DNA from: a virus
Lineage: Duplodnaviria; Caudoviricetes
DNA: 64,000 bases
Reading direction: 5' to 3' (one strand)
Virus record (IMG/VR): IMGVR_UViG_3300028603_000018
Coordinates: 128,001-192,000 of that record
Position 1 is the first letter of the stretch. Every line of letters starts with the position of its first letter. The position numbers and the translations under genes were made by a program. Positions 38,889 to 56,419 of this stretch are shown one piece after another. The notes below the pieces were generated by a model. That model did not search any database. It was given only the letters and a program-made list of their open reading frames with translations, and was not told the origin of the DNA.

Positions 38889-38904
38889 AATTTTGAGGAA
38901 AAAG

Positions 38905-41294
38905 ATGGGTATTAGCTTAGTTCTTCAAAATCATGATGAGATTTATAGGGAGCAGTTACACGCTACACCTATTCTCATAGATTTTCAAAGACTCACCGAG
39001 CATGAATATTTTAGTAAAGCATTATCAAATAAGCATCGCAATGCCTTAGCTGAGATTAATAAGCCGCAGGAAATTAACTATTTCCGAGACTCCACAATTG
39101 AAGATAAGGATAAAATTAACCGAACTTTCTATACTCGATACGTATCTGAGAAAACAAATACAGTTATTGAAGATATTCCGAGTTGTCAGTGCGGTGAATT
39201 TAATACTTATAAAAACTTAGGTTGTGTATGTAATGAATGTGGTACGATAGTATCCAGTAACCGCAGTATGGATTTACATCCTTTAGTATGGATCGCAGCA
39301 CCAGAAGGCATCCCTGCTCTAATTAATCCTACAGCTTATCGAATCATTGCCGGTCGTTTCGAGATTAGTAAATTCGATGTTATTCGTTGGATTATGGATT
39401 ATAATTATACAGCACCAGGTAAAGAACCTATTGCTGTAGAGCAGTTAGAAAGAATGGAGATCCCAAGAGGAATCATTAATTTCTACCATCATTTCGACAC
39501 TATTATCGAAACCTTGTTCGGTATGCGTTCTTTAAGTAAAGGACCTAATACAGCAAAGTTAGACGAAGAACTTAGAACTTTTATCAAAAATAATAGGGAT
39601 AAGATTTTCTCTAAGCATATTCCAATGCCTAACAAAACTTTGCTAGTAGTAGAGAGTACTAACTTTGCTACGTATATGGACCCAAAGTTAAGTGGTATTA
39701 TTGACGCACTTTGGTTGATGGTAGGAATTGATAGTGAGCACTCTAATCTCACTTTAAAGCAAAAAGAAATGCGTGTGATTAAGGCATTAGCTCAAATTGC
39801 TGAATATCACACTGAGTCTGATAAGACTTCTTTAGCTCAAAAAGGCGGTATCTTCCGACGACATGTCTTTGGATTTAGAGCTTGGTTAAGTTTTAGGACA
39901 GTAATCTCCTCAATTACTGAACCACACAACTTAAGAGATATCTATATTCCATGGAGTACAGCAGTTACTTGTTTTCAGTATCACTTAATAAATAAGTTAA
40001 GTAAGAGGTTAAATCCAAATACTGGAAAACGCTTTACTCCCCATGAAATCGATCTGTTTATTGAAGGTCATGTCAACAAATGGCATCCTTTACTTAGAGA
40101 GATCTTTGATGAATTATTAGCTGAGACACCAAATGGACGAGGTATCCCCTGCTTAAAGAATAGGAACCCTAGTCTTTATCGCAACTCTATCCAAAAGGTG
40201 TATATAACTAAGATCAAAGATGATATCACTGATGTTACAACAAGTATTAGTATCTTAACTGTTCGTCCCCTCAATGCTAAAAAGATAAGATATTTATTAA
40301 TAGATATTTTGTTATTGGCCATTACACTAGTAATAGTGTACTTGAATCCTCTCTAACTGACTGGGAACTCCTACAACAATAGGACAATCAGCAGCGAAGC
40401 TTTGTCTTAATAATACTCAGACAAAGAACGTTCAACGATCAGAGAAACCAATAAATGTAACTCGTATTAAAAGACGAGAATAAGCTAGATATTATCTAGA
40501 CGAAGGGAGTATCGTAGCGCCAAGTGGTGGGTATAACCCTTAAAGACGAAACGGGAGGCTTCCTAACTAATAGGAAGAAGATATGATCTGAGCCTTACAG
40601 TAATGTAAGGAGGGTGTCTTAGCACACCTGCTTATGAGAGCGTGTTAAAACACAACGGCATAAGTGGACAATTCTGGATAAACGAAGCTTTTATAGCTAT
40701 ACAGTCCCTTTCTTTAGAAATAAAGAAATGGTAACTTTTTGAATTGCTGGGAACCCCTTAGAGCCTGACTCACGACAACGCAGTTGGAAACGACAAACGT
40801 GATCGTAAAAAAGAAGTCTGGATTGGGCAATCAGCCGGTAAGCTCCTAACCCTCACAATTATTGAGAGGTATGGGGAATCCTCAACGATCATCCGGTAGC
40901 GCGGAGTAGAACCCCAAGTGGGGAAGAAGCGGAAAGTACCTGACCAGGTAATGCTGAAGGTAGTGATATGATCTATGCTCCTATGGGAAAGCCATAGGCA
41001 GGTGCCTTAGCGTACCGGCTCTTTGAGAGCGTACTTAATGTACAACGGCTTAGAGCGGACATTAGGTTCGATGGTGACGAGCTTAACTTCTCTATTATTC
41101 CGGATCAGAGGTTAGCTGAAGGACTAGAGAGACTCTCTGTTATCTTTAGTGCTTTTGATCTGACTAATCCTCGGAGAGTGTCTGGTAGTGTAGCATTTCC
41201 TAAAACAGTACTTGCAACTATTGCTAACTACTTACACAGTAAAAAGGAAGTTATTCCAGCTATGCAGTCTAGAATGATCGAACTGTATAGTTGA
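38905..41294 (+). CDS. nvRNAP beta-prime N-terminal subunit (phiKZ gp55-56.1-like), spliced: join(38905..40278,40677..40679,41067..41294), about 534 aa
   Basis: Zn-finger CQC...CNEC, GIFRRHVFGFR and NRNPSL motifs. Joining the exons restores PLNA-D-FDGDELN. The last exon reads FDGDELNFSIIP...MIELYS-stop and is missing from the ORF track. Confidence 0.9.
40279..40676 (+). mobile_element. Group I intron 1 (ORF-less, 398 nt)
   Basis: 5' exon ends in U (gcT). P element aactgactgggaa 40355, Q aatcagcag 40386, R gttcaacgatca 40430, S gaagatatgatct 40577, P3 cctctc/gggagg. Ends ggacaattctG. Confidence 0.88.
40677..40679 (+). other. 3-nt micro-exon GAT (first Asp of NADFDGD)
   Basis: Needed to restore the catalytic motif. 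Preceded by the terminal G of intron 1 and ends in the U needed for the 5' splice site of intron 2. Confidence 0.8.
40680..41066 (+). mobile_element. Group I intron 2 (ORF-less, 387 nt)
   Basis: IGS gtcc 40704-40707, P aattgctgggaa 40742, Q aatcagccgg 40829, R cctcaacgatca 40880, S gtgatatgatct 40963. Ends ggacattagG directly before ttc gat ggt gac. P10 cgaa/ttcg. Confidence 0.88.
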
Positions 41295-52197: not shown

Positions 52198-52305
52198 AGC
52201 GTATTTTTCAAGATAGATTTTTACAATAACATATTATCAATTAGTAGCTGTTAAATTACAGCTAAAAACTTACTCCTTCTTTTACTCAATTAAGAGGATG
52301 TGTTA

Positions 52306-55300
52306 ATGAGTCTAACCAGACCTAAACCAGATCCGATGATTAAAACTAATCAACTCCATAGAGAATTGCTTAGTGTAAGTGGATTTGATTCTTTTGCTGC
52401 TCATGGAACCTCTCCAAGAAAGCAGATGTTTGCAACTCATTTAGGACAGTGTCTTGTAGTAAAACATTCCACAGAACGCAGTTATCAAACTGGTATGGAA
52501 AGAGCTTACGCTAAATATACATTTAGTATTAAAGCTCCTACCACAATGCATATCATCGCTATTGTTAACCGGTATCCAGAGATTCAAGGCGTAGACAAGA
52601 TTAAATTTAATCCCCAGTCTATTGTCGTCTACGAAGATCTTATTACTAGAACGATCTCAGCAATGGATGTACGTCGATTCAAAGCTAACCATCCTCACTT
52701 TGGCTTTGATTATGTTGCTAGACCAGCTTCTCAATTATTACGAGCTGGAGAGACTATTGAGAAAGATACTATCTTCTACGATAGTCCTTCTGTAACAGAA
52801 AATGGTGGATACAAGTATGGTGTAGAACTAAACATCCTTCATGCTACCTTACCAGCTACTTCTGAAGATGGTAGCATGATCTCTGAATCAGCTGCTAAGA
52901 AGTTCACCTACATGACGTTCGAAACTCGTGTAGCGGATTGTGGTGCTGATGAGATTCCTATCTTCTTATATGGTACGGATGAACAACCTAAGATTTGTCC
53001 AGATATCGGAGAGAAAGTCAGGGATGATGGTCTACTTTTTGTAACTAGAAAAGTCGATGATAACTTAGCCCCCTTTTACCAATCTAAACACGCACTTAGA
53101 AAATACTTTCCAAAGTTTGATACACCTATCTATGTACCACCAGGTGGGACAGTAATTGATATCCAAGTCCATCACGATCCTTTATGTAAGCAAGCTCGTG
53201 TACCAACTGGAATGGACGATCAGTTATTAAAGTATCAACGGTCTTTAATGAACTTCCATAAAGCAATTAAAGACATCTGGTCTAAGTACTTAAGAGAACG
53301 AGGTGAGGGATTAAAACTCTCTCCAGAGTTTGAACGCTTGGTTGTCGATGCAATTGCTTATACGGATGATAAAGCTAATGCACGTCCTCAACGACAATAC
53401 CGACTAGCTCGACTGGGTGATTGGCGTATTGAATTTACTGTTAGATACGAAAATGTACCTAGTGTAGGTAATAAGGCAACTGGTTGCTTCGGAGATTCTC
53501 ACATAGAGCCTGTTAACTATATTTAGGTATATAGTATAGGCCAATGAAATACTAGAAATTATTAACGATCTTTTTAATTTGCAGCGTTTGGCCTGTATTT
53601 TTCTAATTTAGGAGGTCAAATGACAAAGCAGTATAAATTAGTACCGGGATCAGAGTCAGTACGTTATGATGTAATAAATGACACTTATACTAGATTTAAT
53701 CCGAAAGAAGATGGGTTTGTAGAAAAAGGTTCCCGAATAACCTTTAACTACCATAACCGAACCATCACGGTAGATAGAGAATGGCTTCGTTTATTTACAA
53801 TCTTTGAAACAAAGCTTCCCGAGCAAGTTTGGATTCATGTAGAAAAAATTAGGTTCGTAGACTGCTATAATAAAGTACTTCGTTTACCCACCAATAAAAT
53901 AATGGTGTTGGACGAATGCTTTCACTATCATCCGTATTATCGTATTGTTCCAGGCTTTACTCATCTATTCATCAGTAAGAATGGTGTGGTAATTGATTGG
54001 ACTGATAACTTTAAACCCGTTTCTATTTTAGATGATCAGTATAAAAACTTAAACATCTATGATCCTGAACGAGGTTTTGTTAGATCAGTTCCACTACATC
54101 GCTTACTTGGTTTGGCTTGGATTAATAATGACAATTACCAAGAAAAGCCCATAATGAATCACATAGATGGAAATAAGTATAATAATCAGCTGAGTAATCT
54201 AGAATGGGTCTCTCATCAAGAAAATAACGTTCACGCTAGTGAGGTCGGGTTAAATACCGATTCTCTAGCATGTAAAGCTCGGGATGTAGTAAGTGGTGAG
54301 GTACAAACATTCAACAGTCTTGGTCAGTTATCTCGCGCTTTAGGTGTTGGAGCAGTTAATCTGGAGCGGTTAAATACCACCCGCCCAACTTCTTTAATTG
54401 GTGACCGATATGAAGTTCGTTTATTAGGTGATGACACGCCTTGGTTATTTGATACCGTAGACGATCTACCAAAGGTTAAAGGACGTTATCAAATCAATGT
54501 TACACATGCGAAGCAGGGTAAGTTAACTTTCCATGATGTTAGAACAGCGGTGTTTAATTTGAAATACCGTAAGACGTGGGGATGTGGTAATGTCAGGACT
54601 TTACAACAGTTCTTAGAAAAAGATCCGTATGTTCAGGATTTTGAGATTATTGATCATTATAAATACACAGCAACAGTTCAGGCGAAAAACGTAGATACAG
54701 GAGAAGTAGTGGAAGAACCTACCTTTACTTATCTTTCTAGACGTTTAAAGCTTCAACGTAGTGCTATTAAGAAAATCCTGAATTCGGGTCAGGTACAGTG
54801 TTATCATGGCTGGTTGATTCGTTTAACGAGTGAAGATCCTTGGCCGGAAGATTATCAGATACATGGTCAGAGACGTATTAGTGTGGTAGCTAAACACAAT
54901 AAGACAGGCCAATGTTTGAAATTTCCCACCCTAAGAGCTACTGCAAGGCACTTCGGGATAGATCGTAAAACCATTTCAGTTCGTATTAATAATAAAACGG
55001 ACTACGATGGCTGGTATTTTGAATTGGTTTAATTTACAGGTAAGAATTTATTTGGTCTCCCTAAATAGTGATATTTAGTAAAAAACCTCTCTAACTGCGG
55101 GAACATCCTAAAGTCTTAAATTACTTCTTACTCATGGAAACGTAGAGTAATGCCTCGACCAGTAATGGAAGTTCGAGGGACAGTAAAAACATTTAAGAAT
55201 ATATGGGTAACCGACGCAACAAAGCTCCTAAGTCTAGAGATATGGAGTGTGTTCAACGACTATCGACGTAGCGCCTAAGTAGGTAATCGAGGATTTTAAA

Positions 55301-56419
55301 GCGAAACGGGAGGCCCTCAACTAGCTTAAGTTGAGGTGAAGATATAGTCTGTTCCCCAAGGAAAGCTTGGGGCGGGTGTCGTAGCACACCGGATATGTAT
55401 GGAAACGATACATATTGGACAATAAGAAAGGTATTATCGTAACAGTAGTTCCAGATGAGAAAATGCCTGTTGATGATCGGGGTGTTCGAGTGGAATTTAT
55501 CACAGATCCTCTAGCTACAATTGCTCGGAGTACTTTAGGTCGAGTGATGGAACCCTTTCTAAATGCTGCTGGACAGAATATTGTTAGAGAGATAGCATTA
55601 GCTCTTAATCTGAAATGGGGAACTGTAGTAACGCCACAGTTACTAGAAACTAAGAACGTTAATGGGTTAGTCAGGAAGCAGTTTGAAAAACTCAAAGACT
55701 TCTATTATACGGTATCATCTGAAAAGATGGGTCCTTGGCATGAGAATCTAACAGATAAAGAACTCTATGAGCATCTGAGTTCTGTTATTACTCGAACCTT
55801 ACCTATTATGTATAAACCACCTTCTGATGAGAAAGAGATGGTGGATATTATCATGGAAATTAATGAGAAGTATCCTCCTTATGAATCTCATATCACTTAT
55901 GTAGGTAACTCTGGTAAGACCGTACGGTCTAAAGAAAAGTTTATTATCGGAAGAGCTTATGTTATTCTCTTAGATAAAACAGGAGATTCTGCTGCTGCTA
56001 TTGCCTCAGGTAAATTAGGTCACTTTGGTGTTCCTAGTCAAATTACTCGTCAAGATAAATACACGAGTCCTAATCGACGACAGCATACTCGTATCTTTGG
56101 TGAAGCAGAGATGCGAATCATTGCTTCGTATTGTCCGTCTTGGGTGGCTGCTGAAATCATTGATAGGAACTCCAATAAAGATAGCATGGGAGTTATTATT
56201 AACGGATTACTCACCACAGATAAACCAACTAATACTTTTGAGCTAATCAATAGAAAGGAGCATAAGTACAATGGTGGTAGACCTATTCAGATCGTACGAC
56301 ACTTAGCACTTACAGCAGGTTGGGGTTTCCAATATAAACCTTATCAGCCTCTTTGGATGAAAGGTAATAAAGTAAAAGATTTTGTACTAGAGAGCTTAGA
56401 CAAAACAGAAGCTGTTTAA
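52306..56419 (+). CDS. nvRNAP beta C-terminal subunit (phiKZ gp71-73-like), spliced: join(52306..53496,55427..56419)
   Basis: R.QM..H..Q, EDG, GNKATGCFGD|KGII (compare bacterial GDKMAGRHGNKG), and RIFGEAEMR motifs. Confidence 0.9.
53497..55426 (+). mobile_element. Group I intron 3 carrying an HNH endonuclease gene
   Basis: Exon end ggagaT pairs with IGS Gtctcc 55055-55060. P aactgcgggaa 55094, R gttcaacgacta 55251, S gaagatatagtct 55338. Ends ggacaataaG, and splicing restores GDKG in frame. Confidence 0.9.
53620..55032 (+). CDS. Intron-encoded HNH homing endonuclease with NUMOD-type DNA-binding repeats
   Basis: LHRL...NHIDGNKYNNQLSNLEWVSHQEN, C-terminal F.SL...R.LG-type helix-turn-helix repeats, and AGGAGGT RBS. 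Confidence 0.92.
   Translation: MTKQYKLVPGSESVRYDVINDTYTRFNPKEDGFVEKGSRITFNYHNRTITVDREWLRLFTIFETKLPEQVWIHVEKIRFVDCYNKVLRLPTNKIMVLDECFHYHPYYRIVPGFTHLFISKNGVVIDWTDNFKPVSILDDQYKNLNIYDPERGFVRSVPLHRLLGLAWINNDNYQEKPIMNHIDGNKYNNQLSNLEWVSHQENNVHASEVGLNTDSLACKARDVVSGEVQTFNSLGQLSRALGVGAVNLERLNTTRPTSLIGDRYEVRLLGDDTPWLFDTVDDLPKVKGRYQINVTHAKQGKLTFHDVRTAVFNLKYRKTWGCGNVRTLQQFLEKDPYVQDFEIIDHYKYTATVQAKNVDTGEVVEEPTFTYLSRRLKLQRSAIKKILNSGQVQCYHGWLIRLTSEDPWPEDYQIHGQRRISVVAKHNKTGQCLKFPTLRATARHFGIDRKTISVRINNKTDYDGWYFELV

What the first reader, a model, noticed from the sequence alone, without database searches (positions are those of the whole stretch)
40273..41081. RNA polymerase catalytic aspartate encoded by a 3-nt micro-exon between two tandem group I introns
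Seen: the beta-prime N gene reads ...CTC AAT GCT (L-N-A) up to 40278, and TTC GAT GGT GAC GAG (F-D-G-D-E) resumes at 41067, so one Asp of the universal NADFDGD motif is missing from both flanks. The 788 nt between them hold two complete group I cores, each with P, Q, R and S elements and similar 3' ends (ggacaattctG, ggacattagG). They are separated by exactly GAT at 40677-40679. Both 5' splice sites follow U and both introns end in G. Established: the three Asp residues bind the catalytic Mg2+, and phiKZ has a single intron in this gene. Inference: making an active nvRNAP needs two self-splicing events that must keep a single-codon exon. I know of no described phage case, but could not search.
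Basis: partly seen in the sequence, partly recalled or inferred. Interest (0 to 1): 0.95.

Follow-up and report, generated by a model that had tools for sequence, protein, structure and literature searches.

The report
One-codon exon between two phage introns
In an uncultured nucleus-forming giant phage, the gene for the catalytic part of its RNA polymerase is cut by two self-splicing introns three bases apart, so one essential magnesium-binding aspartate sits alone on a three-base exon. This is the tightest form I could find for a phage of an arrangement already known from mitochondria and other phages.

Summary
Exon 1 ends ...L-N-A at 40278 and the next exon starts F-D-G-D at 41067. Three independent alignments (a PHROG profile, intron-free homologs and the solved phiKZ subunit) each show exactly one missing residue, the first Asp of NADFDGD.

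The 788 nt between the exons hold two non-overlapping group I cores: RF00028 at 68.7 bits, and at 44.6 bits (E 6e-10, below the curated cut-off of 50). GAT lies exactly between them.

The helices fit this reading:
- Intron 1 has a U.G splice-site pair and a 5-bp P10 in register with GAUAA.
- Intron 2 has GAU/GUC with a U.G pair.
- Both introns keep P7 and end in G.

Each of the two insertion sites is occupied singly in related metagenomic phages. Relatives also carry 16-, 12- and 13-nt (Goslar) exons in the same motif.

The two introns belong to different sub-lineages, so they arose by two separate insertions, not by a duplication.

No RNA data could be obtained, so splicing is inferred. Published precedents are the Twort 23-nt exon and the placozoan cox1 1-nt exon. 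Earlier notes of this scan report 13-, 6- and 2-nt cases on other phage DNA.

Verdict: real, and a new extreme variant of a known kind.

The parts
38893..40278 (+). Exon 1 of the non-virion RNA polymerase beta-prime N-terminal subunit gene (phiKZ gp55-like). It ends ...R-P-L-N-A. The called protein P0001 starts at the ATG 12 nt further in.
   Evidence: phrog_2987 at E 8e-113, profile positions 1-417. PDB 7OGP_A at E 4e-32. The chimallin gene lies directly upstream.
40279..40676 (+). Group I intron 1, 398 nt, with no ORF. It is inserted between Ala and Asp (GCT|GAT).
   Evidence: RF00028 at 68.7 bits over 40285-40610. It starts after U40278 and ends in G40676. It is related to L004 intron A and L006 intron 1.
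40312..40319 (+). Internal guide of intron 1. GGC at 40317-19 pairs with exon GCU at 40276-78, with G40317 opposite U40278 (P1). UUAUU at 40312-16 pairs with GAUAA at 40677-81 (P10), contiguous with P1.
   Evidence: MFE fold and register scan. This is the only candidate guide in the first 120 nt. The P10 is 5 bp.
40437..40441 (+). Intron 1 P7 5' strand, GAUCA. It pairs with UGAUC at 40584-40588 and forms the guanosine-binding helix.
   Evidence: Rfam alignment columns for the GACUA/UAGUC consensus, with compensatory changes.
40630..40665 (+). Intron 1 3' peripheral hairpin with internal loops AGAGC/AACGG. The same element occurs in intron 2 at 41018-41056, with compensatory stem changes.
   Evidence: Fold and alignments. 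It is not present in the tails of L004_iA, L006_i1, T2P or L014.
40677..40679 (+). Micro-exon GAT, the first Asp of NADFDGD.
Evidence: It supplies the single residue missing. The predicted spliced reading gives RPLNADFDGDELNF.
40680..41066 (+). Group I intron 2, 387 nt, with no ORF. It is inserted between Asp and Phe (GAT|TTC).
   Evidence: RF00028 at 44.6 bits, E 6e-10, over 40680-40999. Its core is similar to the L013 and L014 introns (E 2e-16 and 2e-13). It ends in G41066.
40704..40707 (+). Internal guide of intron 2, GUCC. G40704 lies opposite U40679, U40705 pairs with A40678 and C40706 with G40677. C40707 can also pair with G40676, the last base of intron 1.
   Evidence: Fold and scan. 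The same GUCCC sits just before P2 in the L014 intron at the same site.
40887..40891 (+). Intron 2 P7 5' strand, GAUCA. It pairs with UGAUC at 40969-40973.
   Evidence: Rfam alignment and coordinates.
41067..41291 (+). Exon 3: F-D-G-D-E-L-N-F... (74 codons plus stop).
   Evidence: phrog_2987 profile positions 419-477. PDB 7OGP_A residues 438-496. Translation.

Best explanation
The window lies on a 244-kb, 36% G+C contig of a chimallin-encoding (nucleus-forming, phiKZ-like) jumbo phage. Its beta-prime N-terminal RNA polymerase gene has been invaded twice, at sites three bases apart, by group I introns of two different sub-lineages. One sits at GCT|GAT and the other at GAT|TTC.

The pre-mRNA must undergo two separate self-splicing reactions:
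- Intron 1 holds exon 1 by GCU/GGC with a U.G pair at the cleavage site. It aligns the next exon by a 5-bp P10 that reads GAU plus the first two bases of intron 2, and it leaves after G40676.
- Intron 2 holds the three-base exon by GAU/GUC with a U.G pair and leaves after G41066.

The product reads AAUGCU-GAU-UUCGAUGGUGAC, which restores NADFDGD.

Shown here: the sequences, the two cores, the pairings, the one-residue gap, and the occupancy of each site in relatives. Inferred: that both introns splice, that GAU is retained, and the order of splicing. Either order leaves a workable helix. The single intron at this site in L014 has only a 3-bp exon-guide pairing in its P1, so intron 2 need not depend on intron 1.
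For: - Two RF00028 matches abut GAT.
- Exactly one residue is missing against a PHROG profile, intron-free homologs and the solved phiKZ subunit.
- P1 and P10 of intron 1 are contiguous on one guide, and the P10 is 5 bp at a fixed register. My own estimate of the chance of that is 0.375^5, about 0.007, not a tool result.
- P1 of intron 2 has a U.G pair.
- P7 is intact in both introns.
- In relatives where coding forces the boundaries, the same rules hold. L006 intron 2 has P1 of 7 bp and P10 of 5 bp. L004 intron B has 5 and 4 bp.
- The A|D site is occupied in L006. The D|F site is occupied singly in L014 with the same guide.
- The spacing from the last hairpin to the final G is 11 nt here, against 10 nt in L004_iA and L006_i1.
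- The same 2.4-kb stretch is identical in an independently assembled contig, and the protein is on 6 contigs.
- The rest of the gene is open and in frame.
Against:
- Intron 2 scores below Rfam's gathering threshold.
- Its P1 is only 3-4 bp and its P10 only 1 bp.
- GGAC at 40666-69 can pair with the same guide by four Watson-Crick pairs and could compete.
- Short exons between group I introns are known to be skipped in part, as with the Twort 23-nt exon (cited in PMC10136302) and phage SIOphi TerL (PMC11878797). The yield of correct mRNA is therefore unknown.
Confidence: 0.8

Rival explanations
1. The concept is the same but the triplet differs. The micro-exon would be GAC at 40667-40669, with intron 1 ending at G40666 and intron 2 starting at 40670. 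The protein would be identical.
For: GGAC at 40666-69 pairs with the intron 2 guide GUCC by four Watson-Crick pairs. In L014 the single intron at this site follows GAC, with C rather than U at the splice site.
Against: - The tail motif GGACAA plus 3-4 nt plus G is intronic in L004_iA and L006_i1, where coding fixes the boundary.
- P10 of intron 1 would drop from 5 to 2 bp.
- The splice-site U.G pair, which PMC3895272 gives as the only sequence requirement of P1, would be lost.
- The covariance-model match for intron 2 starts at 40680.
Confidence: 0.06
2. The three-base exon is mostly or always skipped, or the gene is decaying. The product would then be a catalytically dead NAFDGD protein or none at all.
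For: Exon skipping is documented for short exons between group I introns (PMC10136302, PMC11878797). The helices of intron 2 are short.
Against: - The phage recurs unchanged in several assemblies.
- Both exons are open, in frame and conserved.
- GAT encodes exactly the missing residue.
- The P10 guide of intron 1 (UUAUU) matches GAUAA but not exon 3 (UUCGA), which disfavours a direct exon 1 to exon 3 join.
- I searched for no second copy of this subunit, so that point is open.
Confidence: 0.08
3. The tandem arrangement is an assembly artefact, or the 788 nt form one composite intron removed as a unit.
For: The two introns share a similar 3' tail that could in principle mislead an assembler.
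Against: An independent ENA assembly carries the identical 2.4 kb. The cores are dissimilar, with no blastn match between them. Removal as one unit would delete an invariant catalytic Asp. Two complete cores are present, each with its own P7.
Confidence: 0.02

Closest known systems
Placozoan mitochondrial cox1 single-base micro-exon between two group IB introns (Osigus et al. 2017, PMC5436844)
   Same: An ultra-short exon isolated by a second group I intron insertion. It supplies part of a functionally indispensable residue. Two independent cores flank it.
   Different: That case is mitochondrial, 1 nt long and confirmed by RNA-seq intermediates. This one is a phage gene, a whole codon, has the catalytic Asp of an RNA polymerase as its target, and has no RNA data.
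Staphylococcus phage Twort orf142: a 23-nt exon between two similar IA2 group I introns, with exon skipping (Landthaler & Shub 1999, as cited in PMC10136302)
   Same: A phage gene with tandem self-splicing group I introns around a short exon.
   Different: The exon there is 23 nt, against 3 nt here. The Twort introns are close paralogs, while here they belong to different sub-lineages. Splicing and skipping were shown experimentally for Twort.
phiKZ gene 55/56/56.1 (nvRNAP beta-prime N) with one group I intron carrying an HNH gene. The solved chain is PDB 7OGP_A.
   Same: The same gene, the same motif and the same intron family. T2P gives RF00028 at 80 bits, at N|ADFDGD.
   Different: It has one intron, one codon upstream, with a homing endonuclease gene. 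Here there are two ORF-less introns.
Escherichia phage Goslar (MK327938), the same gene
   Same: Two group I introns inside the same motif around a short exon. I verified TT| intron | CGACGGTGACGCT | intron | ATGAAC.
   Different: The exon is 13 nt and the insertion sites differ. The GenBank record annotates only one intron and separate hypothetical proteins.
Fungal mitochondrial mini-exons and side-by-side (tandem) group I introns (PMC10352661, PMC6279837)
   Same: Exons shorter than about 4 codons between organellar introns, which PMC10352661 says 'occur regularly in mitochondrial genes'. Tandem group I introns with no exon between them are also described.
   Different: These are organellar hosts, and they often depend on maturases.

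Membership tests
Group I self-splicing intron (Rfam RF00028): intron 1, 40279-40676 | Covariance-model score at or above the curated cut-off | tested here: met
   68.7 bits against a cut-off of 50, full model 1-253
Group I self-splicing intron (Rfam RF00028): intron 2, 40680-41066 | Covariance-model score at or above the curated cut-off | tested here: inconclusive
   44.6 bits, below 50, but E 6e-10 genome-wide and full model 1-253. The core matches the L013 intron (87.8 bits) and the L014 intron (72.7 bits) at E 2e-16 and 2e-13.
Group I self-splicing intron (both introns) | P1 with a U.G wobble at the 5' splice site, formed with an internal guide sequence | tested here: met
   U40278.G40317 and U40679.G40704
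Group I self-splicing intron (both introns) | P7 helix (guanosine-binding site) and a terminal G | tested here: met
   GAUCA/UGAUC in both introns. G40676 and G41066 are the last bases.
Group I self-splicing intron (both introns) | P10 pairing of the guide with the 3' exon | tested here: inconclusive
   Intron 1 has 5 bp. Intron 2 has 1 bp, and by my own reading of the letters L014 has none. P10 is dispensable in some introns.
Group I self-splicing intron (both introns) | Guanosine-dependent self-splicing | not testable with these tools
   This needs in vitro transcription or RNA-seq.
phiKZ-type non-virion RNA polymerase beta-prime N-terminal subunit (phrog_2987, PHIKZ055/056.1) | Sequence homology over the whole subunit | tested here: met
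   phrog_2987 at E 8e-113 and 1e-8 for the two large exons. PDB 7OGP_A at E 4e-32 and 1e-5.
phiKZ-type non-virion RNA polymerase beta-prime N-terminal subunit | Contiguous NADFDGD metal-binding motif | tested here: met
   It is present only in the predicted spliced reading. In the DNA it lies in three pieces.
Micro-exon between tandem group I introns (placozoan cox1 type) | Two independent intron cores flanking an exon of a few bases that restores a conserved residue | tested here: met
Micro-exon between tandem group I introns (placozoan cox1 type) | Retention of the micro-exon in mature RNA | not testable with these tools
   No RNA data

The most novel reading that the evidence does not exclude
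The two ribozymes may be functionally coupled. The guide of intron 2 can read the last G of intron 1. The P10 of intron 1 reads the first two bases of intron 2. The two introns share a private 3' peripheral element. Retention versus skipping of the one-codon exon could then set how much active versus dead beta-prime subunit is made, as a splicing-level control or quality check on the phage's own transcription. More broadly, the NADFDGD-coding DNA of jumbo-phage RNA polymerases is an intron-homing battleground with at least eight sites in about 27 nt, and I found no published description of that.
Probability: 0.12. Interest if true: 0.8.

Novelty: new variant of a known kind. Interest (0 to 1): 0.55.

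Why it matters
This is a natural test case for the lower limit of exon recognition by group I ribozymes. An exon of three bases is at once the whole 3' exon for one intron and the whole 5' exon for the next.

It also shows how densely homing introns can pack into the most conserved codons of an essential phage enzyme.

There is a practical consequence for annotation. Gene callers and aligners will report this polymerase as lacking a catalytic Asp, or as two unrelated ORFs. Micro-exon-aware annotation, as used for mitochondria, is therefore needed for jumbo phages.

Tried and rejected
- **Close DNA relatives.** Megablast of the gene against 50,697 phage records gave no match. The IMG/VR scan with exon 1 gave no relative.
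- **Pfam.** Pfam on the separate exons gave nothing significant, because the motif domain is split.
- **Pairwise identities.** Global pairwise identities between introns were uninformative, with a background near 75%. I replaced them with blastn.
- **L004 intron B.** Rfam gave no hit for L004 intron B (248 nt) even at E 10. I call it a group I intron only from its P1 of 5 bp, its P10 of 4 bp, frame restoration, and P7-like GACUxA/UAGUC motifs read by eye.
- **Ordered splicing.** I considered that splicing order is fixed by the G40676-C40707 pair and rejected it as unnecessary. L014 has the same guide sequence with only 3 bp of exon-guide pairing and no upstream intron.
- **Other triplets.** I considered other G|GAY triplets at 40383, 40821 and 41058. 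They lie inside core helices or the tail of intron 2.
- **In-frame reading.** Reading ...GCG GAC ATT AGG TTC in frame would give NA-DIR-FDGD and is incompatible with the invariant loop.

Full report
**What is in the sequence.**
Reading 40100-41250 and slicing by script confirm every letter of the finding.
- The ORF from 38893 ends its homology at ...CGT CCC CTC AAT GCT (R-P-L-N-A) at 40278.
- TTC GAT GGT GAC GAG CTT AAC TTC (F-D-G-D-E-L-N-F) starts at 41067 and runs to a stop at 41289-41291.
- GAT at 40677-40679 lies between ...GGACAATTCTG and AAACGAAGC....
- The two intervening stretches are 398 and 387 nt, and neither contains a long ORF.

**What the gene is.**
- Exon 1 matches phrog_2987 (RNA polymerase beta subunit) at E 8e-113 over profile positions 1-417. 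Exon 3 matches positions 419-477, so one profile position is unaccounted for.
- Against PDB 7OGP chain A (PHIKZ055 fused to PHIKZ056.1, the phiKZ non-virion polymerase beta-prime N subunit), exon 1 reaches residue 436 and exon 3 starts at 438.
- Intron-free genes of Ralstonia phage RP12, Burkholderia phage FLC9 and PhiPA3 read LN(A/C)DFDGD straight through the gap.
- The gene directly upstream is chimallin (PF25677, phrog_4795).
- The window lies on a 244,062-bp contig of 35.8% G+C, binned into an assembly of 59% G+C.
- This is therefore an uncultured chimallin-encoding jumbo phage, and the interrupted gene is its phiKZ gp55-like catalytic subunit.

**Two ribozymes.**
- Rfam RF00028 matches 40285-40610 at 68.7 bits (cut-off 50). 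It also matches 40680-40999 at 44.6 bits, with E 6e-10 for the local stretch and for the whole 4.1-Mb assembly. Both matches cover the full model.
- The second match begins at the base after GAT.
- Both introns keep the P7 pseudoknot as GAUCA/UGAUC, a compensated version of the consensus GACUA/UAGUC.
- Both carry insertions between P7 and P3', and a tail of about 66 nt after P9. Related introns have such a tail too (T2P 54 nt, L014 48 nt).

**Splice-site helices.**
- A scan for a guide G opposite the last exon U found a single candidate in intron 1. G40317 pairs GGC with exon GCU. Immediately 5' of it, UUAUU pairs with GAUAA, which is the micro-exon plus the first two bases of intron 2.
- P1 and P10 contiguous on one guide is the canonical geometry for exon ligation. 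I estimate the chance of five pairs at a fixed register at about 0.007.
- In intron 2, G40704 lies opposite U40679, with U-A and C-G pairs following. C40707 can add a fourth pair with G40676, the terminal G of intron 1.
- The same scan gives strong helices for relatives whose boundaries are forced by coding. L006 intron 2 has P1 of 7 bp and P10 of 5 bp. L004 intron B has 5 and 4 bp. L004 intron A has 3 and 4 bp.
- The exon-guide part of a natural P1 can be as short as 3 bp. The Azoarcus P1 had to be lengthened by 3 nt to reach six pairs, and the Anabaena P1 is described as very short (PMC3895272).

**Relatives.**
The protein search found 33 homologs, and 19 of them lack the Pfam RNA polymerase domain hit in the called ORF. 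All six that I opened, counting the window's own protein P0001, are interrupted inside the motif:

| Locus or phage | Arrangement |
|---|---|
| L004 (73% identity) | CCGCT \| 435-nt intron \| TAATGCTGACTTCGAT (16 nt) \| 248-nt intron \| GGGGAT... |
| L006 (70% identity) | ...AATGCT \| 1476-nt intron with an HNH gene \| GATTTTGACGGT (12 nt) \| 313-nt intron \| GATGCA... |
| L014 | a single intron after ...GCTGAC and before TTTGATGGT, the same D\|F site as intron 2 here, with the same guide GUCCC just before P2 |
| L013 | a single intron at G\|D |
| L012 | leaves homology after LNA, then the contig ends |
| Phikzvirus T2P and PA02 | one intron at N\|A |
| Goslar (cultured) | TT \| intron with HNH \| CGACGGTGACGCT (13 nt) \| intron \| ATGAAC |

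That makes at least eight insertion sites in about 27 nt. Both sites used in this window are used separately elsewhere.

**Origin.**
- By blastn, intron 1 resembles L004 intron A and L006 intron 1 in both its 5' and 3' parts.
- Intron 2 resembles the cores of L013 and L014 (E 2e-16 and 2e-13).
- The two window introns give no match to each other.
- The arrangement therefore arose by two independent insertions, not by tandem duplication.
- They do share a 3' peripheral hairpin with conserved internal loops AGAGC/AACGG and compensatory stems. The other family members lack it. This hints at exchange between the two neighbours.

**Mechanism and order.**
- If intron 1 goes first, it uses its 5-bp P10 and leaves intron 2 with GAU/GUC (3 bp). 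That is the same exon-guide pairing the L014 intron has (GAC/GUC).
- If intron 2 goes first, it has 4 bp, and intron 1 is left with a 3-bp P10.
- Either order is workable, so I do not think the order is fixed.
- The intron 1 P10 guide does not match exon 3 (UUCGA), which should disfavour skipping.
- None of this is shown experimentally.

**Rivals.**
- GGAC at 40666-69 could also pair with the intron 2 guide and would give a GAC micro-exon. It is disfavoured for four reasons:
  - Tail homology: the hairpin-to-final-G spacing is 10 nt in L004_iA and L006_i1 and 11 nt here, but would be 1 nt in the rival reading.
  - P10 would be 2 bp rather than 5.
  - The U.G rule would be broken.
  - The model start for intron 2 is at 40680.
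- An assembly artefact is unlikely. An independent ENA contig is identical over the 2.4 kb, and the protein occurs on six contigs.
- Skipping or decay cannot be excluded without RNA data.

**Known or new.**
- Full-text searches found no paper on a micro-exon between group I introns in a phage.
- Published precedents exist for the mechanism:
  - the Twort 23-nt and Coxiella 34-nt exons, with skipping (PMC10136302);
  - a small exon in phiNIT1 and a skipped exon in SIOphi (PMC11878797);
  - the placozoan cox1 1-nt exon that restores a conserved His (PMC5436844);
  - fungal mini-exons and tandem introns (PMC10352661, PMC6279837).
- Earlier notes of this scan report 13-nt (Goslar-like phages), 6-nt and 2-nt exons in polymerase motifs of other jumbo phages. 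I verified only the Goslar case.
- This window is therefore an extreme, single-codon variant of a recurring arrangement that is apparently still unpublished for phages.

Noticed in passing
window 52300-56419 (intron core at 55032-55372): A third group I intron (RF00028, 77.6 bits) with a 470-aa HNH endonuclease ORF (53620-55032) splits another RNA polymerase subunit gene. phrog_3295 positions 6-403 lie upstream and 403-694 downstream, which resembles phiKZ gp71/72/73.
   Followed up: partly
G000 contig C90 outside the window: 98605-99012, 102508-102813, 200577-200969 (loci L010, L011): All six group I introns of this phage sit in polymerase genes. Two more lie in RNA polymerase subunit genes (phrog_2986 and phrog_3148) and one in the DNA polymerase gene (phrog_3011).
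   Followed up: partly
L014 3759-3765 and 3960-3972: The single intron at the D|F site of this relative follows GAC, so the base at the 5' splice site is C rather than the near-universal U. It would pair as C-G with the guide GUCCC. Its P1 loop of about 190 nt also holds an AAUUGCUGGAG stretch that looks like a remnant of a second intron core.
   Followed up: no
window 40630-40665 and 41018-41056: The two adjacent introns share a peripheral 3' hairpin with identical internal loops (AGAGC/AACGG) and compensatory stems. The element is absent from their closest relatives. This may reflect exchange between neighbouring introns or a shared tertiary contact.
   Followed up: partly
L004 4819-5066: A compact 248-nt intron at NADFD|GD gives no Rfam hit even at E 10. 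It still has a 5-bp P1, a 4-bp P10 and P7-like motifs. It may be a divergent small group I form missed by RF00028.
   Followed up: partly
L015 (Goslar MK327938, record 167154-172327): The public record annotates one Intron_gpI ncRNA and separate hypothetical proteins. The 13-nt exon and the second intron (L015 4127-4480) are not annotated.
   Followed up: partly
whole assembly G000: The 244-kb phage contig (35.8% G+C) is binned with contigs that average 59% G+C. The bin's 7.5% contamination estimate fits a mis-binned phage, so the bin says nothing reliable about the host.
   Followed up: no
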